A stretch of DNA of 64,000 bases from Patescibacteria group bacterium (GCA_018971045.1 JAGWVF010000005.1:10764-74763); one strand, 5' to 3'. Positions 35,425 to 56,044 are shown, numbered from the stretch's first letter. Translations and numbers: made by a program. Notes: generated by a model not told the origin, from the letters alone.

Positions 35425-35495
35425 GCGGGATTAGTTTAGTGGCAGGACGACTGCTTCCCAAGCAGTAGGCACGAGTTCGATTCTCGTATCCCGCA
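35425..35495 (+). tRNA. tRNA-Gly (anticodon CCC)
   Basis: Acceptor GCGGGAT/ATCCCGC, anticodon loop TTCCCAA, CCA not encoded. Confidence 0.85.
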
Positions 35496-35579
35496 CAAAC
35501 AGATGCTAAGTCGAGAGACTAGGACGCGTCGCCTAAAGCACGCGACCGCGAAGCTTGTCACATTGCCTACCCGCGTCTC

Positions 35580-35798
35580 TTATTGCTCTGGGTGGAGCGC
35601 TTTTTTCACGCCCTCGACTGAAGCACGATCAATGACCTCTCCGCCACACTCGTTATGTTGGCACATGGCGAACGTCATCCTCTCGCTCCCGCGACCGGTC
35701 CCGTCATCGGGCCAGCGCTCGAACTTGTCGATCTTCCCGTAGATGGACGTCTCACTCTCATCGACGTCGCGCTGACATTTTTTACAATACAAGGACAT
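35580..35798 (-). CDS. small zinc-ribbon protein
   Basis: 72 aa with CxxC…C…C (CKKCQ…CQHNEC). Confidence 0.4.
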   Translation of the reverse strand: MSLYCKKCQRDVDESETSIYGKIDKFERWPDDGTGRGSERMTFAMCQHNECGGEVIDRASVEGVKKALHPEQ

Positions 35799-35837
35799 GG
35801 TTGAATTCTATACCGAATAAAGACTGCAAGAAACCAA

Positions 35838-35865
35838 GAAACGCCGCTAATTAGCGGCGTTTCTT
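35838..35865. terminator. hairpin terminator aagaaacgccgctaa/ttagcggcgtttctt
   Basis: Perfect 13-bp stem. It contains the stop codon of the small basic ORF. Confidence 0.45.
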
Positions 35866-35976
35866 GCTGCGGCGCTCGCGCAACGCGGCACCAGCAACGC
35901 TCCGAACGATCCGGCGCTTACCGTTTCTCAAAAGTCGGCTGGCTTCGCTTGCGACACGTTTACTTGTTTTTGCCAT
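35851..35976 (-). CDS. very basic 41-aa protein (MAKTSKRVASEASRLLRNGKRRIVRSVAGAALRERRSKKRR)
   Basis: Hand-translated. It lies between the Ubl/E1 operon and the terminator hairpin. It is absent from the ORF track because it is under 60 aa. Confidence 0.3.
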   Translation of the reverse strand: MAKTSKRVASEASRLLRNGKRRIVRSVAGAALRERRSKKRR

Positions 35977-36009
35977 AGACGTTTTGATTTAGGTTGATAA
36001 TGTTCGACG

Positions 36010-36204
36010 CTAGTGAAGGTGGAAGGTCGAAACGAAACCGCCGAGCAGCCCTACAAAGATGAGCCCGACGATAAGCGCGACGAACTTTCCGTACACGCCG
36101 CGTAGCACGTCCAACACTAATTTCCAGATTCCCATGAAAAAGAAACGGATCATTTGCCATAGGACATAGAAAATCCCAAAGACTATGTTCAAAAAGATAT
36201 TCAT
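36010..36204 (-). CDS. small two-helix membrane protein
   Basis: 64 aa. The start overlaps the E1 stop (ATGA). Confidence 0.45.
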   Translation of the reverse strand: MNIFLNIVFGIFYVLWQMIRFFFMGIWKLVLDVLRGVYGKFVALIVGLIFVGLLGGFVSTFHLH

Positions 36205-37013
36205 ACGTTCGGAAGTTTGAAGAACAAATCGCCAGCATCCTCAATCGAGTGGTGCGGGCATTCACCATCGACGACATGACCGAGAAAGTTCGAGGGTTCC
36301 ACCGTCTGCGTATTCCCGTCATATTCGAGGCACGCAACGGGACGCATGTTCCGATGCCACGGCGTCACCATCTCTACCATAAGCCCAAGAGCAGTTGAGG
36401 CGAGAACACCATTCGCCCACACCACTTGAGGGCGACCGCCAGCCGCGCCGTATTTCTTCGCCTCTTCGGCGATCGTGTACTTATTCAGGATATGCAGACA
36501 CCACAAGCAGGGTTCGCCCGGCATCGAACGCGCGACCTGGCCGGTGATCGAGAAGTGAGTTTTGTCGTCGTGCACTTCCATACCGATGTCGATGTACGGA
36601 ATGAAGAATCGGCGTGCGAATCGTTCAAGATCTGCTCGCTCTGCAAACGAATCTACGCAGCCGAAAATAACATCGCACATGCGCAGCGCATGGTCATTCT
36701 GTTGCCACTTGGTCATCATGGAAACGCACTCGGCGTTTTGTTGGAGTCCGCGAATTAGACGCTCGGCAACTTCCAGCTTTGGGGTCGCGTCGAGCGCATC
36801 TTGGGTTGTCGCTCCGATAAGACGATTGAGGTTCGTGTCTTCGACGACGTCTGGATCATACAAAATGAAATGCTGTATTCCGACATACGCCAATTGTTGA
36901 ACGACGTGGGATCCGCCGCCGCCTAGGCCGATAACGCCGACTCGGATGCGGCTAAGGACGTCCTCGCTACGAGGTCCGAGAAAACTTTGTCGTGCGTATC
37001 GTTTGCTAGTCAT
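36201..37013 (-). CDS. ThiF/MoeB/E1-like ubiquitin-like-activating enzyme
   Basis: YARQSFLG…VGVIGLGGGGSHVVQQL…DPDVVEDTNLNRL. C-terminal CLWC and CPHH zinc-type motifs. Confidence 0.75.
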   Translation of the reverse strand: MTSKRYARQSFLGPRSEDVLSRIRVGVIGLGGGGSHVVQQLAYVGIQHFILYDPDVVEDTNLNRLIGATTQDALDATPKLEVAERLIRGLQQNAECVSMMTKWQQNDHALRMCDVIFGCVDSFAERADLERFARRFFIPYIDIGMEVHDDKTHFSITGQVARSMPGEPCLWCLHILNKYTIAEEAKKYGAAGGRPQVVWANGVLASTALGLMVEMVTPWHRNMRPVACLEYDGNTQTVEPSNFLGHVVDGECPHHSIEDAGDLFFKLPNV

Positions 37014-37525
37014 GGTAGGTGGAGGAGGTCGGTCGGCATGCCGACGGCGATGATCTCTTCTATCTCTTCAGGTGCTTTATTCTCGGCGAGCCACACGCGG
37101 CCGCATGCGCGCTCATCGCTCAGTATGAGCGCACCGTGGGGCATGTGAGGTGCAGTATGGAAAAAGTCAGGAACGAAATTCCTGGTCTCTCGCGAGTCAG
37201 TGCGGCTAAAAAACGGAATTTCGTCACCCCAATGATGATGAACATGGAAGACCGAGATATCGCCTTGACCTTCGTGCAGTCCAAGACGCAGAGCGCGGAG
37301 TATCGCGTCCGGCCCTATCACTGCTCCTGCCGAAGGATCATCGAGGTACTCGTCATCGGGTATGGGTTCGTAAGCCGTCGCAAGGATCAAGAGCACGTCC
37401 TCCGTTGGTATTGCGGCGTGGCACGAAATGAACCCGACACGCTCCGATGCAAAAGGATGATCTCGGTGAAGATCGTTCAGGATCTCGTACCTCAAACGCT
37501 GCGGGATTTTGAAGATGGTTCTCAT
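37010..37525 (-). CDS. JAB/MPN (JAMM) metalloprotease-domain protein
   Basis: HVHHHWGDEIPFFSRTD (HxH…SxxD) with an upstream conserved Glu. Start at MRTIFK overlaps the upstream stop (ATGA). Confidence 0.6.
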   Translation of the reverse strand: MRTIFKIPQRLRYEILNDLHRDHPFASERVGFISCHAAIPTEDVLLILATAYEPIPDDEYLDDPSAGAVIGPDAILRALRLGLHEGQGDISVFHVHHHWGDEIPFFSRTDSRETRNFVPDFFHTAPHMPHGALILSDERACGRVWLAENKAPEEIEEIIAVGMPTDLLHLP

Positions 37526-37854
37526 ACGAAAGCGTCCAGGTGTCCATAAAGCATCTCGACCAACGTTTGCTCCTTCACAACGTCTTTCCACGAACAGGCG
37601 TGCCATGTTTGGCCGAGGAAGGGATATGCTTTCCAATTTGCGCCCTTACCTGGCACAATTCGTTCAACGAACAGTCGCGTCACATACCCCTCATGCTCTT
37701 GCGGAAGTAGTAGAGCGTTCATGGTCAACGTCGCGTCGCCCGACCTGAATCGAAGTCCGGTGAGCAGCACGAATGTGTACTGTCCTTCCGCCAGAATTTT
37801 CGCGTCATCGCAGACGTCGCGGAGGGGGACGAGTTGTGCTTCGTCGATGTTCAT
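37525..37854 (-). CDS. small partner protein, MoaE-like (MPT-synthase large-subunit-like) or E2-like
   Basis: 110 aa. TFVLLTGLRFRSGD…NALLLPQEH and PG…SWKDV resemble MoaE blocks (TFTGKVR…GD…ALTLEHY, WPGD…FWKRE). Uncertain. Confidence 0.4.
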
Positions 37855-38105
37855 GACGATCCACCACGACGCTTGTGAGATACAAACTTTTCGCCCCCGT
37901 GCACCTTCACTTCCTCGTCGTCCTTGAGCGGGAGCGTTTCCTTCCCCCTGATTTCGGCGAGCCCCTGATCTTCAGGGACGCCGAGCTCCTCCTTGAGCTT
38001 GCGCACTTTGTACGTGCCGGCGGGAATCTTCTTTTCGTGCCCGTTGATAAAAACCTCGACCTCCTTCTCTCGATGCCCGTGCTCTTCGTGTTCTTTCGCT
38101 GCCAT
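37851..38105 (-). CDS. ThiS/MoaD-like beta-grasp ubiquitin-like protein with C-terminal extension after GG
   Basis: 84 aa. VFINGHEKKIP…LKDDEEVKVHGG, then the tail EKFVSHKRRGGSS. His-rich N-terminus. The stop overlaps the next start. Confidence 0.6.
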   Translation of the reverse strand: MAAKEHEEHGHREKEVEVFINGHEKKIPAGTYKVRKLKEELGVPEDQGLAEIRGKETLPLKDDEEVKVHGGEKFVSHKRRGGSS

Positions 38106-38261: not shown

Positions 38262-38633
38262 ATGGCGAAAAAGGATACTGGTACACTAGATGCGAGGGCG
38301 GCCGAAGCGGACGGCGATCTGAAAAAATATATTGGGCGTCAGATCGCCTCGATCCGGAAGGGCTCTGACCTGACGGCGCGGCAAGTTGCTGAGAAGCTGA
38401 AGGTCAAGCGGGAGACCCTGACGCAGATCGAGACGGGACGAAACAATCCGACCGCTTTGATGCTCTGGAAACTTGCATGCCTTTTTCAATGCGAAGTCTC
38501 AGATCTTTTTCCGCAAGTTCCCGAAGGTTTTGGTCTCACGACGTACACGAAATCCGACATGCGCAGAATCAAAAAGGTCGACCCCAGAGCAGTCGAGTGG
38601 GCTGGACGCATGTTCGGTGAGCCTAAGAAGTAA
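38262..38633 (+). CDS. XRE-family helix-turn-helix transcriptional regulator
   Basis: HTH LTARQVAEKLKVKRETLTQIETGRNNP. Confidence 0.75.
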   Translation: MAKKDTGTLDARAAEADGDLKKYIGRQIASIRKGSDLTARQVAEKLKVKRETLTQIETGRNNPTALMLWKLACLFQCEVSDLFPQVPEGFGLTTYTKSDMRRIKKVDPRAVEWAGRMFGEPKK

Positions 38634-38636
38634 TGT

Positions 38637-39149
38637 ATGCCTAACGATATAGAACGAAAAGCAGACGAGATACTCGATGCATCTGGCTTGCGCACGATAC
38701 CAGTTCCGATTGAGGAGATTGCGGAACACTTCAAGATGCATATTGGTCGTGCGCCGAGCAATGACTTCTCCGGTATGCTCATACGTAAAGATGGCGCTGC
38801 ACTCATCGGTGTTAACAGCACAGAGCATCCGCGCCGCCAACGCTTCACGATCGCGCACGAGATCGGACACTTTTTCCTACACCCTACAAAGAATGTTCTT
38901 GTTGATTATCGAAAGTCCTCTAAGGGTACCCACAGGACGCTCAAAGAAAAGGAGGCAGATATTTTCGCAGCTTCACTACTTATGCCAGCACGAGAATTGA
39001 CCAGAGATTTTATAAAAGTGGCTGGCGGCATACTTACAGATGAAGAGCAAAGAAAAAGCGTGGTGAGTCTTTTGGCTACTAAATATGAGGTGAGCGAAGA
39101 GGCAATGAATATTCGATTACTGGGATTGGGAATGCCAGAACGCGCGTAA
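38637..39149 (+). CDS. ImmA/IrrE-family zinc metallopeptidase
   Basis: HEIGHFFLH (HEXXH). COG2856-like. Immediately downstream of the XRE gene. Confidence 0.75.
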   Translation: MPNDIERKADEILDASGLRTIPVPIEEIAEHFKMHIGRAPSNDFSGMLIRKDGAALIGVNSTEHPRRQRFTIAHEIGHFFLHPTKNVLVDYRKSSKGTHRTLKEKEADIFAASLLMPARELTRDFIKVAGGILTDEEQRKSVVSLLATKYEVSEEAMNIRLLGLGMPERA

Positions 39150-39156
39150 GCCTCTC

Positions 39157-40476
39157 CTATTCCAAAGTCACTTTCCTATCCCTCATCACCAACCTGCTCT
39201 TGAGACACGCTAGCAGCTCCCGCTTCTCTGTAAGCGTCCCGTCGCGCAGCAAGTACTTCGCATAGCTGCGTACATCCACATCGGTATTGCGCTCCTTCGT
39301 TTTCATCCCGAGCACGCCGATGCGGAAGCGGTTGAATCGCGCGATCTCATCCTCGATCTTAGAGCGCATACCGATCTCATCCATGTCGACGGTGTCGAGC
39401 AAACCGGTTAGCTCCTCGATCAAATCTTTCTCATTGATCGGCGGATTCTTGCACTCGACACCCTTGCCGCGAGTGCACATGTAATAGACATGCCGATTGG
39501 TGCCGCCGTCCTTGAGCCGCTTGAATTTCTCGTCGGCGGTGATGCCGCTCTCGCAGTAGCCGCAGCATATCAGTTTTGTGAACGCGAATTCTTTGCTTTC
39601 TGTCTTGGGTATGTAGTGGTCTTGGATGGACGCCTGTACCCGGTCGAACAGCTCCTTGGCGATGATGGGCTGGTGCTTGCCCTGATACCAGTTGCCGCTC
39701 CCTGCCGGATACTCGAACTCGCCGTAGTAGAAAGGGTTGCGCAGGAGGAGGTAGACGTTCCCGAGGACGAGTGCTTTGCCGCTTTTCGTCTTGAAGCCGA
39801 TCTTTTTCAGCCATCGGTACACTTGCCGCCCGCTCCAGCTCTCGTTGCCGACTTTCTCGAAGATTTGCCGTACCGTGACCGACCGCTTCGGATCGATCCG
39901 CAGCTGCCCGCGCCGATCGAGGTGGTTTTCGTTGAGGTAGCCGGTCGGTGCGGGTCCCGGCCGCCAGCCCATCTCACATCGGGCCCGCAGACCGCGCTTC
40001 ACGTTGATGACTTTCTGATCGTTCTCCAGCTTCGCCTGCGATCCGAGAATCATGAGCATGAATTTCTCATTCGGGTTGTTCGTGAAGCGCTGCGAATAAG
40101 TGCGAATGTCGACGAGCTTGCCCTGGTCGATGAGATCGACGACTGCGCCAAGGTCTCCCGCGTTGCGTGAGAGCCGATCCGGCGCCCACGTGAGAATGCC
40201 GTTGAATTTGCCCTCTCGAATTTCTTTGAGCAGCTCGTTGTACACGGCACGCTGGCCGACCTCTTTGGAGGAGTGTGACTCGCGCTTGATCTCCGCGATA
40301 TGCAACCCCTCGCGCTCGGCGAGCGTCGTCATCTCCCGCACCTGCGAATCGATGGAGAGCGCCTGCTTGTCCTCTTCCTCGGTGCTCTTGCGGGCGTAAA
40401 GACAGTAGTTGACTGGTAATGGAACTGCGAGTGGTAATGGCCCAGAAACCCGATCTCTTGTGTAATGATTTCTCAT
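39157..40476 (-). CDS. large serine recombinase
   Basis: Resolvase catalytic domain (YARKSTEEE…SIDSQ), recombinase domain, and a C-terminal Cys-rich zinc ribbon (CCGYCE…C). Start trimmed to MRNHYT. Confidence 0.8.
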   Translation of the reverse strand: MRNHYTRDRVSGPLPLAVPLPVNYCLYARKSTEEEDKQALSIDSQVREMTTLAEREGLHIAEIKRESHSSKEVGQRAVYNELLKEIREGKFNGILTWAPDRLSRNAGDLGAVVDLIDQGKLVDIRTYSQRFTNNPNEKFMLMILGSQAKLENDQKVINVKRGLRARCEMGWRPGPAPTGYLNENHLDRRGQLRIDPKRSVTVRQIFEKVGNESWSGRQVYRWLKKIGFKTKSGKALVLGNVYLLLRNPFYYGEFEYPAGSGNWYQGKHQPIIAKELFDRVQASIQDHYIPKTESKEFAFTKLICCGYCESGITADEKFKRLKDGGTNRHVYYMCTRGKGVECKNPPINEKDLIEELTGLLDTVDMDEIGMRSKIEDEIARFNRFRIGVLGMKTKERNTDVDVRSYAKYLLRDGTLTEKRELLACLKSRLVMRDRKVTLE

Positions 40477-40576
40477 ATACCCCAAGGGATGACGCAACGG
40501 TCTGGGGAGTCCAGGCTCCCTCAAACTCGAGGAGTTGGTAACTCCGCTTCGCAAAACCCCGAGACTAAGTTAGGGT

Positions 40577-40800: not shown

Positions 40801-42510
40801 ATGTCCGATATAAAACAAACCGAGCTCAACGCTCGGATCTCAGAATTAGAATCTGAGATCAAAAAATTGAAGAGTGCGAAAACCTACGGCCTCATTTGGG
40901 AAGATAAACCTGAGGACGTCATTTTGCAGTGCCGCGATAGTGTGCCGGTCCTCCGCGAGGTAAAGAATAAAAAGATTGTCGCCGATCCATCGTTACCGAC
41001 AAATCTGTTGATCGAGGGCGACAACTACCACTCACTCTCGGTCTTGAACTACACGCATCGCGGCCAATTCGACGTGATCTACGCCGACCCGCCGTATAAC
41101 ACCGGCAACAAGAGCTGGCGCTACAACAACGATTACATCGAAAAAGAGGACGAGTTTCGGCACAGCAAGTGGCTCTCGTATATCAATAAGAGGGTGCGCC
41201 TCGCCAAAAATCTTTTAAGCGATTCGGGCATTCTGATTTTCGCCATCGACGATTACGAAGCGCATACGCTTCGGCTCCTGCTCGACGAGATCATGGGCGA
41301 AGACAATCGGCTTGGCACCGTCGCCGTGGTACATAATCCGCGGGGACGGAACGACGATAGATTTTTCGCGACGCAGCACGAGTACATGCTCGTGTACGCG
41401 AAGGATAAAGATAAGGCCGTGCTCGGAAATTTCGACCTCACCGATGAAGAGCGCGGCCAGTACAAAAAGAGCGACGATATCTCATCGTATTCGGAGGCGT
41501 CGTTCATGCGTACCGGCAATAACTCCACTCCTCGGGAGCGTCCGAAACTTTTCTATCCGATTTTTTACAACCCGAAAACCCAGAAACTGTCGCTCAAAAA
41601 AGCGAAGGATTCGATTGAGCTTTTGCCGATCAACGAAGCAGGCGAAGAGAAAACGTGGCGCTGGGGCACGGCCACATTCGAGAAACTTTGCGATACGGAT
41701 CTGTTCGTCAAAACGGTAAAGGGCAAATACCGCATATTCAAGAAACGCCGCCTCACCGACGAGGCAGGAAAAAAGCCGAAATCGATTTGGTACAACCCGC
41801 GTTATGACGCCTCAACGTACGGCATCATGGTGCTTCAGGACATCTTTGGGCGAGGCAATCATTTTAACTATCCGAAGTCGTTGCTTTTGATGGAGGACAT
41901 CCTTGAGGTCACCTCGAAACCAGACTCGCTCGTTCTCGATTTCTTTGCCGGTTCGGGAACAACCGGTCACGCTGTGCTCAACCTCAATGAAAGAGACGGC
42001 GGCGCACGCCGGTTTATTCTATGTACAAACAACGAAAATAACATTTGCGAAGAAGTGACTTACGAACGAATCAAGCGCGTCGTAAAGGGCTACAAAGATC
42101 GCCGAGGCAACGCCGTCGATGGAGTGCTCGGCAATCTCGGTTACTACAAAACCGATCTCGTGAATATCGAAAAGCTGCAAACCATATCCGATACGGCCAG
42201 ACTCAAAATTACGTACCAGGCGGGCGAGATGATCGCGATCCGTGAAGACACGCTCGCAGAAAAGGAGAAAAATGAGTGGTGGCAAATATTCGAGGGGCAC
42301 GGTCGATCCACTGCTATTTATTTCAGAGAGGACAAATTGCGTCTCGGCGATCTCGTCAAAGAATTAAATGCCACTAGTAATCCTTCGACGCTCTATGTCT
42401 TCGGCTGGGGCAAGAACGACTACAAGAACGAGTACACCAGTCCGTTGATTCGCGTCGAGGATATCCCAGAGCCGATCATCGAAGTTTATAAGGAAATCAA
42501 TCGGCTCTAA
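40801..42510 (+). CDS. type III restriction-modification methyltransferase (Mod)
   Basis: DPPYNTG motif. The N-terminal LIWEDKPE…LLIEGDN block is typical of type III Mod. Confidence 0.8.
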   Translation: MSDIKQTELNARISELESEIKKLKSAKTYGLIWEDKPEDVILQCRDSVPVLREVKNKKIVADPSLPTNLLIEGDNYHSLSVLNYTHRGQFDVIYADPPYNTGNKSWRYNNDYIEKEDEFRHSKWLSYINKRVRLAKNLLSDSGILIFAIDDYEAHTLRLLLDEIMGEDNRLGTVAVVHNPRGRNDDRFFATQHEYMLVYAKDKDKAVLGNFDLTDEERGQYKKSDDISSYSEASFMRTGNNSTPRERPKLFYPIFYNPKTQKLSLKKAKDSIELLPINEAGEEKTWRWGTATFEKLCDTDLFVKTVKGKYRIFKKRRLTDEAGKKPKSIWYNPRYDASTYGIMVLQDIFGRGNHFNYPKSLLLMEDILEVTSKPDSLVLDFFAGSGTTGHAVLNLNERDGGARRFILCTNNENNICEEVTYERIKRVVKGYKDRRGNAVDGVLGNLGYYKTDLVNIEKLQTISDTARLKITYQAGEMIAIREDTLAEKEKNEWWQIFEGHGRSTAIYFREDKLRLGDLVKELNATSNPSTLYVFGWGKNDYKNEYTSPLIRVEDIPEPIIEVYKEINRL

Positions 42511-42511
42511 T

Positions 42512-46990: not shown

Positions 46991-47037
46991 CGAGAAACGC
47001 CCACTGTAGTGGGCGTTCCCGGAGTGGAGAAATACTG

Positions 47038-47451: not shown

Positions 47452-47488
47452 AAAGAGCCCTCGCGCTAAAAATTTTGCGCGAGGGCCC
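47452..47488 (-). terminator. rho-independent terminator of the DGR target gene
   Basis: gccctcgcgc-taaaaattttg-cgcgagggc. Followed on the minus strand by a T-run. Confidence 0.5.
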
Positions 47489-47526
47489 AAGGAATCAAGA
47501 GGAACAAGCCCTCAAGGATTCAAGGT

Positions 47527-48339: not shown

Positions 48340-48559
48340 CGTCGTTTCCTTTCGTTAGTTACTACCCGAAGCGCTCGGGCGGACGACTGTCTCGAAGTGA
48401 GACGAGTATTTTGAAGACCTGGGGAGATCTGCAAAGCACTCGTCTCACTATTTAAACCTTGAATTACAACGTTCTTTTCTAGGTGATACTTTATCATACT
48501 TGACCAATCTTGTCAACAAAACGCCAGCGGGGCTAATTGCCTTGGAAATGATATTTTCT

Positions 48560-49895: not shown

Positions 49896-49930
49896 TTCGC
49901 AAACTTCCATTTCTAAGCTGGAATGGCACG

Positions 49931-50143
49931 ATGGCTATTCTCTCGCCACAGAGCGCTCGCGAACTTCGACGCATCATCAAGGAATCGACCGGTCGCGATA
50001 TCTCGCTCGGGGAGGCGTACGCCATTTGGCACTACCTCATTAAACTCCTACAGCTACTGTGGCGCATTGAGACGCGCAAAGAAGTACCTCCACCTCCGCA
50101 CCAGCTCAGCCTGTTCAGTAGGATGCCGCGCAAACGCCGCTAG
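49931..50143 (+). CDS. hypothetical small protein
   Basis: ORF trimmed to MAILSPQ. Convergent with the terminase gene. Weak. Confidence 0.2.
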   Translation: MAILSPQSARELRRIIKESTGRDISLGEAYAIWHYLIKLLQLLWRIETRKEVPPPPHQLSLFSRMPRKRR

Positions 50144-51759
50144 AATATCTTTTTCATGAGCCCTGCTGTAATGCCCTTGTGCCCACTGCGTGGCTCGATG
50201 TACGGATCATAACGGTGACTCGGTCCCTCATCGCTGATATCCACTATATACGGCGACTGGTACTCACCGCTCTTCCCGGGAGTGGGAGGTACGCTGTGTT
50301 GGCTGTGAGAAAACGGCGTGTAGCCGTCGTCAGATTTCCATACCTCGATCACAAGGAGCGAAAGCGCGTCGGCCAAGTCATCGTGGTTCTCGTGTCCGAA
50401 ACCGGTCAGCTGGGCGAGCAGCTCCTCACAGCCAGTCTCGGGAAAGAGCACCGAGCCGTTTTTGATGAGGTGGGATATCATCGCCAAGCGCGAACGCTTG
50501 TCGCCCCTTGAGGGTACGCCGATTGCCGGATACCGCTCCTTTTGGAGCATCTGCGGCAGCGCTTTCTGGTATGCATTGTCCTCGATGAACATCTTCGCCT
50601 TCAGGTTGTTGTATGCATACAGCGAGGAGAGAGCTTTCGCACGCTCAAGGGATGTCGGGAAGTCGAGCCATTCGTTGACCGGATGCGGCATGAGGTAGAT
50701 CTTCGCCTCCTCCCTCCAGCCGAAGACTCGTGCGACGACCATGGCAGTCTTGTCCGCTTTCTCGTGCTCGGCGATTGCTAAGTCCATGCCGATGAAGGAA
50801 CAACGGTACCGGTTCTGCGGGGTGAGTGCAGGCATATCTTTGTAATAGCGTATCCACTCCGGATGAATGACCCGTGTCGAGTCGGAGACGATCTCAAGCA
50901 GGTACTCCTGCCGCCACGCCATCTCGTTGGCGACACTCAATCGCAAGTCTTCGATCTTCTGTGCCGTGTCGAATTTGCCAGGCCAGAGGCACTCACCGCT
51001 TTCATTGAGGAGTGGGAACCAGCAGTACGTGCCCTTAAGCTTCTTCTCATCCATCATGCGTCGCAGCTTCATGACAAGTGCGTCTTCGTGGAGAAGGTTG
51101 CCCACGATGATGGTGCGCGTACCGATGTCGCCGAGTGGGATCACTTCGCGGGTGAACCAGTCGAAGAGCTTGGTGCGGCTCTCGTACGTCCGCGCGGACT
51201 GCATATCCTCGATGTCATCCAGTATCAGCAAGTCCGGTCGGTGCTCATGGTGCCTGATGCCGCGGATTGATTGGTCGACCGACGCAATCATGATGCGTGC
51301 GCCAGTATTTTGGAATACCAAGGACGAGATGGCCCACTCGCCGGTACTCGTATCCTCGCGAAAAGGCCCAAGGTCACTCTTAAGGAGCGTGTTGTGCTCA
51401 AGCTCGTACTTGAGGTTCGACATGTGCTGGCGTGCCTGCGCCTGGGTCTGACAGATAATTAGTACGAACTTCTTCTGTTGCACCCCGAGCGTCGCCCACA
51501 GCGAGTATGAGAATGTTACCAAAGTCGACTTGCCGGAGCCTCTGAAAGCGACAATGCATGCCAGCTTGTTGCTCTGGTCCTCGGTGATGCGAAAGATGTC
51601 TTTTTGGAATTCCGCTATTGGATAGCGGACGTAATGTGGGAAGTAGAGGTGGAAGAACATAGCATGGCTGTCCCGCGCGACTGCTTGCCGCACGAGCCGG
51701 TCTTTGGTAATTGCCTCGAACGATTCCTCGTCGAATCCTGTTGCTACTAGATTGTTCAT
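50140..51759 (-). CDS. phage terminase large subunit
   Basis: Walker A AFRGSGKST, LILDDIED, and a nuclease C-terminal half. Confidence 0.8.
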   Translation of the reverse strand: MNNLVATGFDEESFEAITKDRLVRQAVARDSHAMFFHLYFPHYVRYPIAEFQKDIFRITEDQSNKLACIVAFRGSGKSTLVTFSYSLWATLGVQQKKFVLIICQTQAQARQHMSNLKYELEHNTLLKSDLGPFREDTSTGEWAISSLVFQNTGARIMIASVDQSIRGIRHHEHRPDLLILDDIEDMQSARTYESRTKLFDWFTREVIPLGDIGTRTIIVGNLLHEDALVMKLRRMMDEKKLKGTYCWFPLLNESGECLWPGKFDTAQKIEDLRLSVANEMAWRQEYLLEIVSDSTRVIHPEWIRYYKDMPALTPQNRYRCSFIGMDLAIAEHEKADKTAMVVARVFGWREEAKIYLMPHPVNEWLDFPTSLERAKALSSLYAYNNLKAKMFIEDNAYQKALPQMLQKERYPAIGVPSRGDKRSRLAMISHLIKNGSVLFPETGCEELLAQLTGFGHENHDDLADALSLLVIEVWKSDDGYTPFSHSQHSVPPTPGKSGEYQSPYIVDISDEGPSHRYDPYIEPRSGHKGITAGLMKKIF

Positions 51760-52148
51760 ATTGATTTTTTAGTTAACTTTTCTGCTAATTCCATCGCCCT
51801 TTTAAAGTTCGCTTTCTGCTCCGGCGACATCTCCTCGATCACCTTGACCGCTCCTTCGAGTTCGATGCGCGCCTTGTACGTCGTATGGTTATGGCGCAAC
51901 CACGTTACGATCGCTGAGATGTTGCGATCCTTGATCGCTCCTATTAACTGACTTTCTGCGAGATCATTCACGAGGAGTCGCCCTTCGAGCATCGCGTCGT
52001 CGACTGCTTTCGAGAATTCCTTGCTCTCGGCCCGCCAGCGGTACAGCGTGACGCGGCTGATGTCGACCTTCTCGCACGCGATCTGAAGGATCGGCGTCTT
52101 GCGCAGCTGCTCAAGGAGCGCTTCTTTTGCTTTGTCGCTTTTCTTCAT
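51756..52148 (-). CDS. terminase small-subunit-like HTH protein
   Basis: HTH ISRVTLYRWRAESKEF. Start trimmed to MKKSDK. Confidence 0.5.
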   Translation of the reverse strand: MKKSDKAKEALLEQLRKTPILQIACEKVDISRVTLYRWRAESKEFSKAVDDAMLEGRLLVNDLAESQLIGAIKDRNISAIVTWLRHNHTTYKARIELEGAVKVIEEMSPEQKANFKRAMELAEKLTKKSI

Positions 52149-52918
52149 ACGCGCTTGGCTTTCTGCCCGGTTATCCGCTCCCACCGGCGTATCGCCGTCC
52201 TGCAATACTCGTAGTCGACCTCTACAGCGAAGCATCGGCGCTTCGTCTGTTCGCAGGCAAGGAGGGTGGTACCGCTTCCGAGGAAGCCATCGAATACCGT
52301 GTCGCCGATTTCGCTGCTGTTGAGGACGAGCCGTCGCACAAGGCCGGTGGGCTTCGTCGTGGGGTGCAGCTTGCTCTTATTCGGTCTTGGGTAGCACAGA
52401 ACCGACTTGTCCTTGGAGCGGTGGAAGTGGTGCGTGCCATACCAGCCGTAGACGATGAGTTCGTGCTGGGGCGCGTAGTCGAGGCGGCCGATGACGGACT
52501 GCTGCTTCACCCACACGAGGAGCTGTGCGATCTTGAATCCGGTGTCCGCCATGGCGTCCCTCAACGACCAGACCATTTTGTCGGCATTGAAGATATACGC
52601 ACTGTTTTTCTTGGCGAGGTACGGCAAGATGGCTGCGAGCCACGCCTTGCTGAACTGACGATACTCGTCGTCTGATTGCAGCTGGTCGTTCGCGATGTCT
52701 CTGTCCTTCGAGAGTGTGCGAAAGTTGCGTTTTGATTCTGCCACCGAAACTCCATATGGGGGATCGCTGCAGATGAGGTCAATCTTCTCTGCGCCAATGA
52801 GTTTCTTGAGGAGCTGTGGATCGCGGCAGTCGCCGTATGCGAGGCGGTGCTCGCCAAGCTGCCAGACGATGCCTGACTTAGGCGAGCTTACGTGCTTTTT
52901 TGCCGGTGAGTTTTTCAT
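52145..52918 (-). CDS. DNA methyltransferase (N6-adenine/N4-cytosine, DPPY)
   Basis: DPPYGV motif and FDGFLGSGTT SAM-binding motif. Confidence 0.8.
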   Translation of the reverse strand: MKNSPAKKHVSSPKSGIVWQLGEHRLAYGDCRDPQLLKKLIGAEKIDLICSDPPYGVSVAESKRNFRTLSKDRDIANDQLQSDDEYRQFSKAWLAAILPYLAKKNSAYIFNADKMVWSLRDAMADTGFKIAQLLVWVKQQSVIGRLDYAPQHELIVYGWYGTHHFHRSKDKSVLCYPRPNKSKLHPTTKPTGLVRRLVLNSSEIGDTVFDGFLGSGTTLLACEQTKRRCFAVEVDYEYCRTAIRRWERITGQKAKRV

Positions 52919-54140
52919 ATCGGTTTTTGATTACTGTTGCGAATATAGGGTCGACCTCACACAGAAATGCCCTGCGCTTCATTTGCTCGCACGCGACCAT
53001 GATGCTCCCAGATCCCGCCGTAAGATCCAAGACCGTATCGCCCACGCGCGTGCACCTGCGCAGTGCTTTTTCGTGTAACGTGGGCGGCTTTTGGGTCGGG
53101 TGTTCGTACTCACTCGCGGGCAAGCGTTTGACGAGCCAGATGTTGAACAAGTCGACAATTTCTTCAATAACGCGTGCACCGCTGCCAACCTCTTTGTTGA
53201 GAACGGTATTGAGATTCTTGAGCTGGTCGTTGATGTATGGAGATCCAATCGTTCCGTATACCGCGAATTCGGTCGCCTTGTTAAACGCTACCTTCGGAGT
53301 CGGCATCGCGTTGTCCTTCACCCATATGCACAGTCTTTTGGAGTCGATACCAAACTCTTGATACAGCTCCTGCAGAAGCCACACCCAGCGCTCGTCGCAC
53401 CAGAAGATATAGTGGGCATCCACTGCGCTCACCGCGATACTATTGGTGATGAGTGATTTCAGGAATGTGCGGTATTCAGTTGGCGATTTATCGTCCTTTT
53501 CGCTGCCACCATACTTTCCATTTTTGCCATCGTATCGGTATTTGATATTGAAGGGAGGGTCAACATCCACGAAATTGATTCGCGTGTCACCAACGAGTTT
53601 TCGCACTAACGCTTCGTCAGTCGCACTCGCACAGAGGAGCCGGTGATCGCCGAGCACGAGCAGATCGCCAGGTTCAACTGTCGGCTTTTTGATCTTTGCG
53701 ATTTCGGCGGCTTCGTCAAACTCATCGTCTTCGATTTCAAGCTGATCATCCCAGAGGTGCGATAAGTCATTTTCACCGAGAAGGTCGAGGAGAAGGCCTT
53801 GGTCGAATTCGCGCAACAGATTGTAGTCCCAGCTCCCGCGCAGCGCGTTGCTGGCGATAAGGTAGCGGTCGAATTCTTTTTTGGTTAGTTTTCTGTTTGG
53901 CACTCGCACGTCAATTTCACTGTCACCCATGCCCATTTCCATCAATGCTTTGTGACGGTGTGCGCCTGCGACGATGGTGCCGTCAATGTCGACCACAATG
54001 ATTTCCGCATACCCGCTCTGTTTCAGACTCCGCTTTAACTTCGAAAACTGCCGCTCGTCATTGACGTTCGGATTATCGTCGCGCGAGACAAGATCTCGCG
54101 CACGACGCTTCTCGTTGTGCCACATTAATTTTTCTGCCAT
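52878..54140 (-). CDS. ParB-like nuclease domain fused to DNA methyltransferase (DPPF)
   Basis: N-terminal ParB/Srx-like domain (IIVVDIDGTIVAGAHRHKA), DPPFNI motif, TAGSGS. Confidence 0.8.
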   Translation of the reverse strand: MAEKLMWHNEKRRARDLVSRDDNPNVNDERQFSKLKRSLKQSGYAEIIVVDIDGTIVAGAHRHKALMEMGMGDSEIDVRVPNRKLTKKEFDRYLIASNALRGSWDYNLLREFDQGLLLDLLGENDLSHLWDDQLEIEDDEFDEAAEIAKIKKPTVEPGDLLVLGDHRLLCASATDEALVRKLVGDTRINFVDVDPPFNIKYRYDGKNGKYGGSEKDDKSPTEYRTFLKSLITNSIAVSAVDAHYIFWCDERWVWLLQELYQEFGIDSKRLCIWVKDNAMPTPKVAFNKATEFAVYGTIGSPYINDQLKNLNTVLNKEVGSGARVIEEIVDLFNIWLVKRLPASEYEHPTQKPPTLHEKALRRCTRVGDTVLDLTAGSGSIMVACEQMKRRAFLCEVDPIFATVIKNRYEKLTGKKARKLA

Positions 54141-54289: not shown

Positions 54290-55051
54290 TTAGCGGGTAG
54301 CGGGATATACACAATAAAACCTGTCGATGCAGTAACCCGAGCCGCGATTGCCTCGGATAAAATTTTCCGGTAGATGCAGGTCACCATCGATTTTTGCATT
54401 GATGGCTTGTACTAAGTTCTGCACCGCTTTCTGCGTGCATCCTAGATACTCCGCAAGGTCTGAGGTCAGCACATATTTTCTGCTCGCAAGGAGCTTTTCG
54501 ACGAGCAGGATGCGCTTGTTATCCTCTTTGTCCGAAAAAATGCATACGAAGCGGCGGCCTTGCACATGGCGATACAGCTCTTTGACTTCGCGGTCGTAGA
54601 ATAAGTCCATCCACATCTCTTGCGGAGCTTTTTGCGCGATAAGCGCGTTGAATTGGTCCTCCGGCAAGCGCATGGTCTGGTGCTCGGAGACCTCCCGTAC
54701 AGTCACGGTTTTTAGCAACTCGTTAAATTGACGAGACTCCATGCGCATCTCGCGCGGCTCATCATGACGCACAAGGACCACGCGCTCCCTGGTGGCAGGA
54801 ATGATGGCAGTTGGCATAAATTCATCCTGCGCTTTAAAGGCTATCGAGCGTGTGACACTTTCTCCGAGGATGGAGACGCGAGACATGGCAGACGCCATCT
54901 CGCTGGAAGCATTGCGGAGCGCATCACTCATAGCTGCTATTTGTTGGCCCGCTGAGTATATAGCGGGGAGGTGTGGTGCGACGGTTGCTGAAAGCCGCTT
55001 TCCGATCTCCTCAGCCTGCTGCTGGTATTGAGCTGGGATTTGCCTTTCCAT
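54290..55051 (-). CDS. hypothetical phage-associated protein with C-terminal winged-helix
   Basis: DLAEYLGCTQKAVQNLVQAINAKI. Confidence 0.4.
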   Translation of the reverse strand: MERQIPAQYQQQAEEIGKRLSATVAPHLPAIYSAGQQIAAMSDALRNASSEMASAMSRVSILGESVTRSIAFKAQDEFMPTAIIPATRERVVLVRHDEPREMRMESRQFNELLKTVTVREVSEHQTMRLPEDQFNALIAQKAPQEMWMDLFYDREVKELYRHVQGRRFVCIFSDKEDNKRILLVEKLLASRKYVLTSDLAEYLGCTQKAVQNLVQAINAKIDGDLHLPENFIRGNRGSGYCIDRFYCVYPATR

Positions 55052-55315
55052 ACCTAGCTATTTTAGCATTTTTCTTGCCACATGGAAAAATGCAACATGC
55101 TCAAAAACGCCCTTTGATGTTACATTTTATATCAATCCGATTTTCAGACCCCTGACTGGGACGCGTCAGTCTGGTAAAATGAAATCTCCCAAGAAACCCT
55201 TACGGTGCCTTACCTCACAAGGTTCCAGACTGGGGTGGGGCACCAGAAGCGCCGCCCGGCCCGTTCCGTGCTGTGGATAACTCGCCGTGGTATACTTAAC
55301 TTATAACGCATCACC

Positions 55316-55558
55316 ATGAACAAAAACATCACCATCTACAGCACGCCGACCTGCCATTTCTGCAATATGACAAAAGAATTCCTGAAGGATAAAGGCATTG
55401 GCTACACTGAGTTTAATGTCGCCCAGGACATCGAGAAACGTCAGGAGATGATACAGCGCTCCGGCCAAATGGGCGTCCCGGTCATTTTCGTCGGCGACGA
55501 GATGATTATCGGCTTTGACAAGGAGAGGCTCGAGTCCTCGCTTGGCATCGCCGCGTAA
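55316..55558 (+). CDS. glutaredoxin-like protein (NrdH type)
   Basis: CHFC (CxxC), 80 aa. Preceded by TATACT. Confidence 0.75.
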   Translation: MNKNITIYSTPTCHFCNMTKEFLKDKGIGYTEFNVAQDIEKRQEMIQRSGQMGVPVIFVGDEMIIGFDKERLESSLGIAA

Positions 55559-55560
55559 CG

Positions 55561-55634
55561 GCCCCCTTAGTTCAATGGACAGAACGGCTCACTCCTAACG
55601 AGCTGATCCAGGTTCGATTCCTGGAGAGGGCACC
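55561..55634 (+). tRNA. tRNA-Arg (anticodon CCU)
   Basis: T-arm CCAGG/CCTGG, anticodon loop CTCCTAA. Two stem mismatches. Confidence 0.7.
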
Positions 55635-55674
55635 GTGAAGCCGCCAGATCTTTGAGGTGCTAGAATAGTACGAT

Positions 55675-55962
55675 ATGGACCCGGAAATAAAACAGCAGTT
55701 GGCAGAGATACACGCTCTTGCGCGTGAGAATCACCGCCTCTTGCGGGCGGTTCGTCGCCACCAAATGCTCGACACGTGGGGGAAATATATCCTCTGGTTG
55801 CTCTTTATTGTCGGCGCAGTGGGGTGGGTGGTCACCTATCTCGAGCCGCTCGCGGCGAAGTATACTTCAGCGACCGGCACGAGCCCCTCCGGACTCTTCG
55901 GACTCCCGACTTCCGCAGATATTCAAAAGCTGATAAACTCCTATAAAGCCACGCCGCCCTAG
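55675..55962 (+). CDS. hypothetical small membrane protein
   Basis: 95 aa with one TM helix. Lies between two tRNAs. Confidence 0.4.
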   Translation: MDPEIKQQLAEIHALARENHRLLRAVRRHQMLDTWGKYILWLLFIVGAVGWVVTYLEPLAAKYTSATGTSPSGLFGLPTSADIQKLINSYKATPP

Positions 55963-55971
55963 GCGCTGTGC

Positions 55972-56044
55972 GCTTGGATAGCTCAGTTGGTAGAGCACTT
56001 CCCTGAAGAGGAAGGGGTCGTCGGTTCGAGCCCGACTCCAAGCA
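55972..56044 (+). tRNA. tRNA-Phe (anticodon GAA)
   Basis: GCTTGGATAGCTCAGTTGGTAGAGC…CTGAAGA… Perfect cloverleaf, CCA not encoded. Confidence 0.85.

What the first reader, a model, noticed from the sequence alone, without database searches (positions are those of the whole stretch)
35425..56044. About 20-kb tRNA-flanked genomic island of mobile and defence genes
The island lies between tRNA-Gly(CCC) at 35425 and tRNA-Arg(CCU)/tRNA-Phe(GAA) at 55561/55972. The sequence is visibly more AT-rich than the flanks.

It contains almost only mobile or conflict genes:
- the Ubl/E1/JAB operon;
- XRE plus ImmA;
- a large serine recombinase;
- type III Mod/Res;
- a DGR;
- an IS256 element;
- terminase large and small subunits;
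- two phage-type DNA methyltransferases (one ParB-fused).

The phage module is truncated (no portal or capsid) next to the IS256 copy, suggesting decay.

The serine recombinase probably mediated integration. The exact attachment sites are not obvious.
Basis: partly seen in the sequence, partly recalled or inferred. Interest (0 to 1): 0.55.

Follow-up and report, generated by a model that had tools for sequence, protein, structure and literature searches.

The report
Mobile terminase-bearing defence island, tRNA-Gly
This is a real 19.7-kb mobile island in a tiny-genome (CPR/Kaiserbacteria) bacterium, inserted by its own serine recombinase exactly at the end of a tRNA-Gly gene. It belongs to a widespread family of elements that carry phage DNA-packaging genes but no capsid genes, plus swappable anti-phage cargo.

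Summary
The island is real, but its borders and one interpretation need correcting.

**Borders.** Contigs from the same population carry the empty site at 100% flank identity. They fix the insert at 35497-55243 (19,747 bp). The only repeat at the junctions is 4 bp, GCAC, at the 3' end of tRNA-Gly(CCC). Glutaredoxin, tRNA-Arg and tRNA-Phe are conserved core genes, not part of the island.

**Contents.** All listed genes are confirmed.
- The Ubl operon is an unfused Bub (6E)-like system: Ubl, E2-like, JAB and E1. XRE/ImmA is probably its CapH/CapP-type regulator.
- The DGR has the known CPR "TR-(avd)-RT" layout.

**Mobility.** The large serine recombinase (LSR) is the likely integrase. Relatives with homologous recombinases show the same terminal motif right after the 3' ends of many different tRNA genes.

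**"Truncated phage module" is not supported.** ParB-methylase, methylase, TerS, TerL and LSR form a conserved backbone in dozens of metagenomic loci. None of them has portal or capsid genes. True phages with more distant TerL do have them.

**Reading.** Best reading: a satellite-like, capsid-less integrative element with cargo slots for defence genes. How it transfers between cells is inferred, not shown.

**Verdict.** New variant of a known kind; moderately interesting.

The parts
35425..35496 (+). tRNA-Gly(CCC), the integration target. Its last 4 nt, GCAC (35493-35496), are the crossover microhomology. The empty allele reads ...CCCGCA-CCA-G.
35497..35530 (+). Left terminus of the element (attP-derived arm): AAACAGATGCTAAGTCGAGAGAC... 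The motif is conserved after the 3' ends of other tRNAs in relatives.
35580..35798 (-). Small zinc-ribbon-like ORF (72 aa) of unknown role. A perfect 16+16 palindrome (35835-35866) follows it.
36010..36204 (-). 64-aa predicted membrane protein and last gene of the Ubl operon. A 65-aa gene occupies the same position in L174/L175.
36201..37013 (-). E1 (ThiF-type adenylyltransferase, 270 aa). Its closest solved relative is the E1 domain of Citrobacter BubCD. Tyr188 in the EEAKKYGAAG stretch is conserved.
37010..37525 (-). JAB/JAMM peptidase (171 aa). Residues E28, H94, H96, S107 and D110 are invariant. The best fold match is the BubCD peptidase domain.
37522..37854 (-). E2-like protein (110 aa). 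Ser88 is invariant and Cys87 is not. The top fold match is BubB.
37851..38105 (-). Ubl precursor (84 aa). The conserved C-terminus reads ...RRGG-SS. Weak profile matches point to SAMP2/ThiS-type beta-grasp proteins.
38262..39149 (+). XRE HTH (38262-38633) plus M78/ImmA peptidase (38637-39149), transcribed divergently from the Ubl operon. Probably a CapH/CapP-type regulator pair.
39157..40554 (-). Large serine recombinase with Resolvase, Recombinase and Zn-ribbon domains. The YxRxS57 motif is conserved. The exact start codon is uncertain.
40801..44830 (+). Type III restriction-modification system: Mod (40801-42510) and Res (42512-44830). It sits as cargo between TerL and the recombinase, as in L142.
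44867..45586 (+). 239-aa ORF with no match in Pfam, PADLOC, NCBIfam or PHROGs.
45590..48339 (-). DGR. RT 45590-46636 (-); Avd 46637-46990 (+); TR 47034-47154; VR 47532-47652 at the 3' end of target gene 47527-48339 (-). This is the TR-(avd)-RT layout, architecture B3.
48541..49917 (+). IS256-family insertion sequence. The transposase is 48612-49790 and the imperfect 17-nt inverted repeats are 76% complementary. No 8-bp target duplication. Single copy in the window.
50140..52235 (-). Terminase large subunit (50140-51759) and small subunit (51756-52235). The Walker A/B and nuclease residues invariant in the family are present.
52145..54140 (-). N6/N4 DNA methylase (52145-52918) and ParB-fused methylase (52878-54140). 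Both are part of the conserved backbone.
54290..55051 (-). 253-aa protein with a C-terminal HTH and unknown role. It sits where relatives carry a regulator upstream of ParB-methylase.
55221..55243 (+). Right terminus of the element, GGTTCCAGACTGGGGTGGGGCAC, ending in the second GCAC copy. It is conserved in L045.

Best explanation
Window 35497-55243 is one 19.7-kb integrative mobile element in a Candidatus Kaiserbacteria-like (CPR/Patescibacteria) genome.

**Integration.** The element's large serine recombinase (LSR) most likely inserted it, by a crossover within GCAC, into the discriminator/CCA end of the tRNA-Gly(CCC) gene. Strains of the same population with and without it coexist.

**Family.** It belongs to a large family defined by this recombinase clade and by conserved terminal arms. 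About half of the members carry a co-oriented operon of ParB-methylase, (methylase), TerS and TerL just upstream of the recombinase. None carries portal, capsid or tail genes.

**Cargo slots.** There are two variable slots, one between TerL and the recombinase and one between the recombinase and the tRNA-side arm. In this copy:
- Slot 1 holds IS256, a CPR-type DGR, an unknown ORF and a type III RM system.
- Slot 2 holds an unfused Bub/6E-like ubiquitin-like conjugation operon (Ubl, E2-like, JAB, E1) with a divergent XRE plus M78-protease regulator pair.

**Inferred, not shown.** After excision the element's DNA is methylated. Its own terminase then packages it into capsids supplied by a helper phage, in the manner of a satellite. 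This spreads defence cargo between cells.
For: **Insertion and exact borders**
- The empty site appears in L086, L087 and L083 with 100% identical flanks.
- Contigs L088 and L089 end at 35496, and L084 and L085 start at 55240. Island DNA from the same run series is in L081 and L082.
- There is no long repeat of the tRNA 3' end.

**Synteny**
- The core order without the island is seen in 58 of 80 relatives.

**Recombinase**
- It has the three LSR domains, is similar to SPbeta SprA and has conserved catalytic residues.

**Termini**
- The left-arm motif follows tRNA-Lys, Gln, Met and Phe in L102, L099, L104, L105, L107 and L011.
- Both arms flank a 1.2-kb relic at the same tRNA-Gly in L045.
- A tRNA with its 3' end facing the element lies downstream in 26 of 37 loci. 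In none is the first downstream tRNA in the opposite orientation.

**Backbone without head genes**.

**Defence cargo in relatives**
- Type I and III RM, Cas1, ThsB-TIR, an Eco57I-like methylase with an SNF2-PLD protein, HamA, and DGRs.

**Bub-like operon**. Regulator pairing.
Against: - No excised circle or attP junction was observed. The one contig near the right end stops short of it.
- No recombination directionality factor was identified.
- No replication module (primase, helicase or Rep) was found in the element. Classical satellites usually have one.
- No helper phage is known.
- About half of the recombinase-family loci lack the terminase module (14 of 31; a ~5-kb example is L102). Packaging genes are therefore not needed for integration, and their role is unproven.
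- Dyad symmetry of the reconstructed attP and attB is weak.
- Host assignment of most metagenomic relatives is unverified. Only L001, L005, L011 and L142 are placed in Patescibacteria.
- The IS256 copy lacks a target duplication, so some rearrangement near TerL cannot be excluded.
Confidence: 0.72

Rival explanations
1. A decaying prophage. A temperate CPR phage integrated through its serine integrase. It later lost its portal, head, tail and lysis genes by deletion, perhaps mediated by IS256, while gaining defence genes. The terminase genes are leftovers with no current role.
For: - TerL, TerS and phage-type methylases are phage-derived, and their more distant relatives sit in real head modules.
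- IS256 lies next to TerL and has no target-site duplication.
- In-situ decay does occur in this family: the L045 relic keeps only the two arms and the DGR target.
Against: - The same capsid-less layout recurs in dozens of loci whose TerL is only 39-62% identical. TerL abuts the recombinase, and the TerL catalytic residues are invariant.
- Independent decay would not repeatedly give the same architecture with intact reading frames.
- No portal, protease or major-head family is found in any LSR-set locus.
- The whole 19.7 kb is still gained or lost precisely in the population.
Confidence: 0.15
2. A hotspot mosaic. The segment is not one element but several independent insertions that piled up at a tRNA-Gly hotspot: the Bub cassette, a recombinase with RM, the DGR, IS256 and a phage fragment. 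The recombinase serves only part of it.
For: - GC varies by module, from 47.8% to 59.2%.
- Many relatives have unrelated 0.2-3.4-kb insertions and tRNA-Gly fragments at the same site.
- The modules occur in different combinations elsewhere.
Against: - The same-population alleles differ by the entire 19,747 bp, with a clean junction on otherwise 100% identical flanks.
- Both outermost ends are the conserved arms of one element type.
- No internal copies of either arm motif exist in the window.
- The module mixing is better explained as cargo exchange within the element's slots.
Confidence: 0.08
3. A terminase module used for interference. The element moves by some other route, such as generalized transduction, transformation or vesicles, as SCC-type cassettes do. 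Its TerS/TerL and methylases mainly sabotage the packaging of invading phages or protect DNA, and so act as another defence cargo.
For: - Terminase-less members of the family exist (L102; 14 of 31 loci).
- The rest of the cargo is defensive.
- No replication module was found.
Against: - The terminase module has a fixed position and orientation relative to the recombinase and the element ends, unlike the variable cargo.
- No precedent was tested here.
Confidence: 0.05

Closest known systems
Phage satellites (PICI/SaPI, cf-PICI)
   Same: - A 10-20-kb integrative island with a stress-responsive regulator.
- Its own packaging gene(s) but an incomplete virion gene set.
- Carries defence or accessory cargo.
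- Site-specific integration.
   Different: - Known satellites use tyrosine integrases and have a primase/replication module.
- SaPIs carry TerS only. cf-PICIs carry terminase together with capsid and portal genes.
- This element has a large serine recombinase and both TerS and TerL. It has no capsid or portal genes, no recognisable replicon, and a CPR host. Helper dependence is untested.
SCC (staphylococcal cassette chromosome) elements
   Same: - Cargo cassettes moved by large serine recombinases into one precise chromosomal site.
- They can carry anti-phage defences and have no transfer machinery of their own.
   Different: - SCC elements target the 3' end of rlmH rather than tRNA genes, and use Ccr recombinases.
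- They have no terminase or methylase backbone.
- This statement rests on my own knowledge and the title/abstract of PMC11470126.
Temperate phages with large serine integrases (SPbeta SprA, TP901-1, A118, phiC31)
   Same: - The same recombinase class. The best solved relative is SPbeta YokA/SprA.
- Minimal sequence identity at the crossover.
- A phage-type terminase and methylases.
   Different: - No portal, capsid, tail or lysis genes inside the att-bounded 19.7 kb.
- The target is the extreme 3' end of tRNA genes.
Tycheposons and other tRNA-targeting genomic islands
   Same: - Hotspot next to a tRNA, with variable cargo and population-level presence/absence in a streamlined genome.
   Different: - Those use tyrosine recombinases and duplicate a stretch of the tRNA 3' end. 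Here only 4 bp are shared and the enzyme is a serine recombinase. The comparison rests on my own knowledge; the bioRxiv 2020.12.28.424599 abstract was seen.
Type I Bub (6E.1) ubiquitination-like operons (Ye et al., bioRxiv 10.1101/2024.11.21.623953)
   Same: - Gene order Ubl, E2, JAB, E1.
- E1, JAB and E2-like each have Citrobacter Bub proteins as their best solved match.
- Invariant Ser in the E2-like protein, conserved Tyr in the E1, and a Ubl ending in GG plus two residues.
- Divergent XRE plus M78 regulators, as in the 31% of Bub operons that have CapH/CapP.
   Different: - Four separate genes instead of BubAB and BubCD fusions.
- No DUF6527/BubE protease.
- The E2-like protein has no sequence-level match to BubB, and its conserved Ser/His spacing differs from S333/H335.
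- A small membrane protein ends the operon.
CPR-type DGR, architecture B3 TR-(avd)-RT (Wu et al. 2018, PMC5758913)
   Same: - avd on the opposite strand between TR and RT.
- Adenine-specific TR/VR differences.
- VR at the 3' end of the target gene.
   Different: - Nothing substantive differs. Here the DGR rides as cargo in a mobile element, as it also does in L092, L129 and L186.

Membership tests
Large-serine-recombinase integrative element | Recombinase with resolvase catalytic domain, recombinase domain and zinc ribbon, with the catalytic Ser present | tested here: met
   Pfam PF00239, PF07508 and PF13408. Y53, R55 and S57 are invariant in the family alignment. The best PDB match is SPbeta YokA/SprA.
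Large-serine-recombinase integrative element | Precise insertion with only a very short shared core between attB and attP, and no long direct repeats | tested here: met
   The empty and occupied alleles share only GCAC. No tRNA 3' repeat occurs elsewhere in the window.
Large-serine-recombinase integrative element | Recombinase shown to catalyse attP x attB recombination, or an excised circle detected | not testable with these tools
   No contig spanning a circular junction was found. An experiment or read-level data would be needed.
Classical tRNA-targeting island (tyrosine integrase) | Tyrosine integrase, and a duplicated tRNA 3' segment of about 15 bp or more at the far end | tested here: not met
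   No tyrosine integrase appears among the ORFs. There is no second copy of the tRNA 3' end within 3 mismatches.
Prophage (intact or recently decayed) | Portal, major capsid, tail and lysis genes next to the terminase | tested here: not met
   None in the window element and none in any LSR-family locus. They are present in phage contigs with more distant TerL.
Phage satellite (PICI-like) | Integrase, regulator and own packaging gene(s), with an incomplete virion gene set and a size of about 10-20 kb | tested here: met
   The 19.7-kb element has the recombinase, XRE/M78 and HTH proteins, and TerS plus TerL. Relatives have a LexA/S24-type repressor upstream of the backbone.
Phage satellite (PICI-like) | Own replication module (primase/helicase/Rep) | tested here: not met
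   No such domain was found in any island ORF with Pfam, NCBIfam or PHROGs. Three ORFs remain unannotated.
Phage satellite (PICI-like) | Induction and packaging that depend on a helper phage | not testable with these tools
   Needs virion-fraction sequencing or culture.
Type I Bub (6E.1) operon | E1 of the Bub type, with adenylation domain and crossover-loop Tyr | tested here: met
   The best PDB match is Citrobacter BubCD at 7e-18. Tyr188 is conserved in three homologues. Its equivalence to Y370 is inferred, not aligned.
Type I Bub (6E.1) operon | JAB/JAMM peptidase of the BubC type | tested here: met
   The JAMM residues are invariant. The only profile hit in PDB is the BubCD peptidase domain. 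The Foldseek top hit is 9ea4, E 5.5e-9, TM 0.76.
Type I Bub (6E.1) operon | E2 with a catalytic Ser rather than Cys (BubB) | tested here: inconclusive
   Ser88 is invariant and Cys87 variable. The model has pLDDT 93, and its top Foldseek hit is BubB at TM 0.64, but with E 0.5. There is no sequence-profile hit, and the S-x-H motif of BubB is not reproduced.
Type I Bub (6E.1) operon | BubAB and BubCD gene fusions, and a DUF6527 (BubE) protease | tested here: not met
   There are four separate genes with 4-bp overlaps. No DUF6527 hit appears even at E up to 10. The same unfused layout is seen in L174-L178.
Diversity-generating retroelement | RT, a TR/VR pair with adenine-specific differences, and VR at the 3' end of the target gene | tested here: met
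   RVT_1 and bAvd hits. The repeat is 119-121 nt, and 13 of 14 mismatches fall at TR adenines. Architecture B3.
IS256-family insertion sequence | Mutator-type transposase, terminal inverted repeats and an 8-bp target duplication | tested here: inconclusive
   Transposase_mut at 1.9e-86. The inverted repeats are 17 nt and 76% complementary. The flanking 8-mers, ctaattgc and ctggaatg, do not match.

The most novel reading that the evidence does not exclude
The island is a member of a previously undescribed, abundant class of capsid-less mobile elements that encode their own terminase. A clade of large serine recombinases integrates them at the discriminator/CCA end of many different tRNA genes. 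These elements act as phage satellites of CPR/Patescibacteria and are a main vehicle for exchanging defence systems among these tiny-genome bacteria. The cargo includes RM systems, CRISPR, Thoeris-like genes, DGRs and an unfused Bub-like ubiquitination system.
Probability: 0.4. Interest if true: 0.75.

Novelty: new variant of a known kind. Interest (0 to 1): 0.6.

Why it matters
**Why CPR matters here.** CPR/Patescibacteria have genomes of about 1 Mb and are mostly uncultured. They are thought to have few mobile elements and few defences.

**What this locus provides.**
- A cleanly delimited element that was recently mobile. Both alleles are present in one population, and the attB/attL/attR sequences are exact.
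- A link from that element to hundreds of metagenomic relatives.

**If the satellite-like reading holds.**
- It would show how defence genes move between such cells.
- It would add a new architecture to the known phage satellites: a serine recombinase with TerS and TerL but no capsid genes.

**Practical value.**
- The recombinase and its short att arms are candidate tools for site-specific integration.
- The unfused Bub-like operon widens the known range of bacterial ubiquitin-like conjugation systems.

Tried and rejected
- **Repeat of the tRNA 3' end at the far border.** None found.
- **Exact-protein look-ups.** The recombinase, E1, the Zn-ribbon ORF, TerL and the transposase are not on record, probably because of start-codon choice or absent gene calls. 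The HTH protein's contig stops before the junction, so no attP circle could be sought.
- **Single-sequence TerL scan of viral contigs.** Nothing found. A profile scan was needed.
- **Pfam, PADLOC, NCBIfam and PHROGs on Ubl, E2-like and JAB.** No hits. These were resolved only by family alignments, AlphaFold2 models and Foldseek.
- **E2-like profile against PDB sequences.** No hit.
- **Dyad symmetry of attP and attB.** Weak and uninformative.
- **Inverted avd as a possible novelty.** Rejected. It is the standard CPR layout, B3.
- **XRE/ImmA as a phage or ICE immunity switch.** Kept only as a minor alternative. L147 has such a pair upstream of the backbone.
- **IS256-mediated truncation.** Rejected as the cause of the missing head genes.
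- **Literature searches for a prior description of such CPR elements.** Nothing relevant found, but the searches were limited.

Full report
**1. Host and setting**

LepA in the window (33274-35064) is at most 88% identical to LepA of metagenome-assembled genomes labelled Candidatus Kaiserbacteria, Paceibacterota or Patescibacteria. The window therefore comes from a CPR bacterium. ARAGORN confirms tRNA-Gly(CCC) at 35425-35496, tRNA-Arg(CCT) at 55561-55634 and tRNA-Phe(GAA) at 55972-56045.

**2. The observation**

- a ThiF-type E1 (36201-37013, - strand);
- XRE (38262-38633) and an M78/ImmA peptidase (38637-39149);
- a large serine recombinase (39157-40554, - strand);
- type III Mod (40801-42510) and Res (42512-44830);
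- a reverse transcriptase (45590-46636, - strand) and bAvd (46637-46990, + strand);
- an IS256-family transposase (48612-49790);
- TerL (50140-51759, - strand; phrog_38, 5.8e-73) and TerS (51756-52235, - strand);
- an N6/N4 methylase (52145-52918, - strand) and a ParB-fused methylase (52878-54140, - strand).

The DGR is genuine. TR (47034-47154) and VR (47532-47652, at the 3' end of target gene 47527-48339) differ at 14 positions, and 13 of those are TR adenines.

GC is 52.7% in the island, against 57.3% and 57.4% in the flanks. It ranges from 47.8% (RT-avd) to 59.2% (TR-target) inside the island.

**3. It is an insertion, and the exact borders**

In 58 of 80 related genomes the order is LepA, DivIC-like gene, tRNA-Gly(CCC), glutaredoxin. 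Further downstream the order continues through the 95-aa ORF (48 loci), DUF2914 (40) and PrsW (46). The gap between the DivIC-like gene and glutaredoxin is as small as 98-140 bp. Nucleotide homology to relatives stops at about 35496-35524 and resumes at about 55268-55272.

Exact-protein look-ups retrieved short contigs from one run series, SRR32006837-46. Their alignment to the window shows the following:
- L086, the tail of L087 and the head of L083 carry the empty site with 100% identical flanks: ...TCGTATCCCGCAC|CAGAAGCGCC...
- The window reads ...CCCGCAC|AAACAGATGC... on the left (35496|35497).
- It reads ...TGGGGCAC|CAGAAGCGCC... on the right (55243|55244).
- L088 and L089 end exactly at 35496, and L084 and L085 start exactly at 55240.
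- L081 and L082 carry island DNA at 100% and 99.9% identity.

From this I conclude:
- The insert is 35497-55243, 19,747 bp.
- The only duplication is GCAC, which is the last acceptor-stem base pair, the discriminator A and the first C of an encoded CCA.
- Occupied and empty alleles coexist in the population.
- Glutaredoxin, tRNA-Arg, the 95-aa ORF and tRNA-Phe are core genes.
- No longer copy of the tRNA 3' end exists anywhere in the window.

**4. Who moved it**

The recombinase has the three domains of large serine recombinases. It resembles the SPbeta integrase and keeps the catalytic YxRxS motif. Clean gain or loss of 19.7 kb with 4 bp of shared sequence fits this enzyme class, which needs only a central dinucleotide. 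It does not fit a tyrosine integrase or the IS256 transposase.

Comparative evidence is strong:
- A profile scan of metagenomes found more than 542 relatives.
- In 26 of 37 loci with enough downstream flank, a tRNA gene lies beyond the recombinase with its 3' end facing it. In none is the first downstream tRNA in the other orientation.
- The closest recombinases (66-75% identity) share the window's left-end motif immediately after the tRNA. The window has GCAC|AAACAGATGCTAAGTCGAGAGAC. L102 (tRNA-Lys) has GCAC|AAACACATGCTAAGTCAGGTGAC. L099, L104, L105 and L107 (tRNA-Gln and tRNA-Met) and L011 (tRNA-Phe in a complete Kaiserbacteria chromosome) are similar.
- In L045, another Kaiserbacteria-like genome, the same tRNA-Gly is followed by the left arm, then only a DGR target gene, then the right arm GGTTCCAGACTGGGGTGGAGCAC. 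This is a 1.2-kb relic that proves both window termini are element ends.
- L102 looks like a ~5-kb minimal member.
- Neither arm motif occurs elsewhere in the window.

The whole segment is therefore one element. The Bub and XRE/ImmA block lies inside it, between the left arm and the recombinase. In L102, L104 and L151 that interval is only about 95 bp.

**5. The "truncated phage module"**

Maps of the recombinase loci show a co-oriented backbone: ParB-methylase, (methylase), TerS, TerL, recombinase.
- It is present in 17 of 31 loci with more than 6 kb upstream.
- TerL lies 24-265 bp from the recombinase in 12 loci and 0.8-7.1 kb away in 10. The window's gap is 9.6 kb.
- L142 has Kaiserbacteria-like flanks, a ParB-methylase 85% identical and a methylase 79% identical to the window's. 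It also has a type III RM system in that gap, and it sits at tRNA-Ser(GGA).

All-against-all clustering finds only four widely shared families: recombinase, methylases, TerS and TerL. A LexA/S24-type repressor lies divergently upstream of ParB-methylase in six loci. A Pfam census of the 101 largest other proteins shows RM components, helicases, Mrr, trypsin-like peptidases and host housekeeping genes. No recurrent structural family appears.

A TerL profile scan of viral contigs gives a clean split:
- Loci with TerL at least 39% identical all have the same backbone, and most show the recombinase within the fetched flank. This includes L183 (next to tRNA-Asp) and L188 (next to tRNA-Gln).
- Among loci with 33-39% identity, ten have TerL followed by a portal.

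The genes after TerL in that second group are portal (phrog_2662, 2.5e-103), head protease, major head protein (phrog_10, 4e-67) and adaptor. Those families occur in none of the recombinase-set loci.

The absence of head genes is therefore the family's native state, not decay caused by IS256. IS256 (48541-49917) has imperfect inverted repeats and no target duplication, and is the only copy in the window. It is just one item in the TerL-recombinase cargo slot.

**6. Cargo**

*(a) The Ubl operon.* It is on the - strand, with 4-bp overlaps between genes: Ubl (84 aa), E2-like (110 aa), JAB (171 aa), E1 (270 aa) and a 64-aa membrane protein.
- Ubl: the C-terminus ...RRGG-SS is conserved in homologues.
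- E1: the best solved relative is Citrobacter BubCD (7e-18).
- JAB: the family (21 homologues, none with Pfam annotation) has invariant E28, H94, H96, S107 and D110. Its only PDB profile hit is the BubCD peptidase domain. The AlphaFold2 model (pLDDT 91.6) matches BubCD best (E 5.5e-9, TM 0.76).
- E2-like: there are 175 cluster representatives in 1.8 billion proteins, in Proteobacteria as well as CPR. Ser88 is invariant and the neighbouring Cys is variable. The model (pLDDT 93.2) has BubB as its top match (TM 0.64, probability 0.90) but with a non-significant E-value, followed by UEV domains.

Ye et al. describe Type I Bub (6E.1) as BubAB plus BubCD plus DUF6527. It works through Tyr and Ser oxyester intermediates, and 31% of operons are paired with CapH plus CapP.

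The window operon is an unfused version with the same gene order and without DUF6527. Tyr188 of the E1 is conserved.

The XRE plus M78 pair lies divergently next to the operon in three settings:
- here in the window;
- in a 72%-identical homologue's contig;
- in L174/L175, where the order is recombinase, M78, XRE, Ubl, E2, JAB, E1 and a 65-aa gene, then host genes, with HamA and type I RM on the other side of the recombinase.

An M78-containing divergent unit also accompanies a 44%-identical operon next to a SIR2 gene in a non-CPR contig. I therefore read XRE/ImmA as a CapH/CapP-like regulator. A role as the element's own switch is possible, because L147 has such a pair upstream of ParB-methylase.

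*(b) Type III RM.* The system appears complete.

*(c) The DGR.* The layout is TR-(avd)-RT with avd on the opposite strand. L092, L129 and L186 share it. This is architecture B3, which accounts for 90% of CPR DGRs (PMC5758913), so it is known.

*(d) Cargo in relatives.* Seen are type I RM, Cas1, ThsB-TIR with an 8xMP protein, an Eco57I-like methylase with an SNF2-PLD protein, and HamA.

**7. How it most likely works**

*Shown:*
- precise site-specific presence/absence at the tRNA-Gly 3' end;
- conserved arms;
- a conserved capsid-less backbone with intact TerL motifs;
- variable defence cargo.

*Inferred:*
- a stress-responsive regulator de-represses the backbone operon;
- the recombinase excises the element;
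- the methylases modify its DNA;
- TerS/TerL package it into capsids from a helper phage.

*Weak points:*
- no replication module;
- no directionality factor;
- no helper;
- no circular junction seen;
- terminase-less members exist.

I put 0.9 on "single LSR-mobilised element at tRNA-Gly", about 0.5 on satellite-type packaging, and 0.72 on the overall statement.

**8. Novelty and verdict**

Genomic islands next to tRNAs, serine-integrase phages, satellites, Bub systems and B3 DGRs are all known.

What I did not find described is the combination seen here. My searches were limited. The combination is:
- a serine-recombinase clade targeting the extreme 3' end of many tRNAs;
- a TerS/TerL/methylase backbone without head genes;
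- defence cargo slots, in CPR bacteria.

I rate it a new variant of a known kind, with interest 0.6.

Noticed in passing
L042, L043, L032, L002, L004, L039, L075 (DivIC-Grx intergenic regions): The hotspot in relatives is littered with tRNA-Gly(CCC) debris. There are extra 3' halves. There are also older tRNA-Gly copies split near the anticodon by about 140 nt that bring in a complete new tRNA-Gly. This suggests repeated targeting or replacement of this tRNA gene.
   Followed up: no
L045:3199-4420: At the same tRNA-Gly sits a 1.2-kb mini-derivative. It keeps the left arm, a DGR target gene with VR (83% identical to window 47449-47656 and 48367-48521) and the right arm, and nothing else. Its right-hand breakpoint corresponds to about 20 bp from the IS256 left end in the window.
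   Followed up: partly
L142:1-17222; window 22755-22842: A sister element sits at tRNA-Ser(GGA) in a Kaiserbacteria-like contig. Its ParB-methylase is 85% and its methylase 79% identical to the window's, and it has a type III RM system between TerL and the recombinase. The same tRNA in the window is unoccupied.
   Followed up: partly
window 35517-35530 and 55154-55167: A 14-nt direct repeat, GACT[A/G]GGACGCGTC (13 of 14 identical), lies about 20 nt inside the left end and about 80 nt inside the right end. It could be an accessory-protein site or chance (E 0.065).
   Followed up: no
window 46634-46639: The start codons of RT (- strand) and avd (+ strand) abut back to back (CAT|ATG) with no intergenic space. 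Each gene's promoter must therefore lie inside or beyond the other gene. RT is probably co-transcribed with TR through antisense avd.
   Followed up: partly
L176/L177:7181-11325: The unfused four-gene Ubl, E2-like, JAB, E1 cassette also occurs outside CPR, in a contig with cytochrome c and an outer-membrane beta-barrel gene. There it lies next to a 1053-aa SIR2_2 protein and has a divergent unit containing a longer (292-aa) M78 peptidase.
   Followed up: no
window 10910-11316 and 14075-14148: The tmRNA has the tag AKSPYFSMKDFAFAHAVA, and a tRNA-Ile carries a genomically encoded TAT anticodon.
   Followed up: no
window 19001-20000, 25001-26000, 28001-29000: Other 1-kb windows have GC near 0.50, well below the ~0.57 background. 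They may mark further foreign segments.
   Followed up: no
L180:3188-6177; L174:10513-11336: One relative has two tandem TerL genes (48% each to the window's). In L174 the E1 gene of the Ubl operon is split into 106-aa and 161-aa pieces, probably by a frameshift.
   Followed up: no
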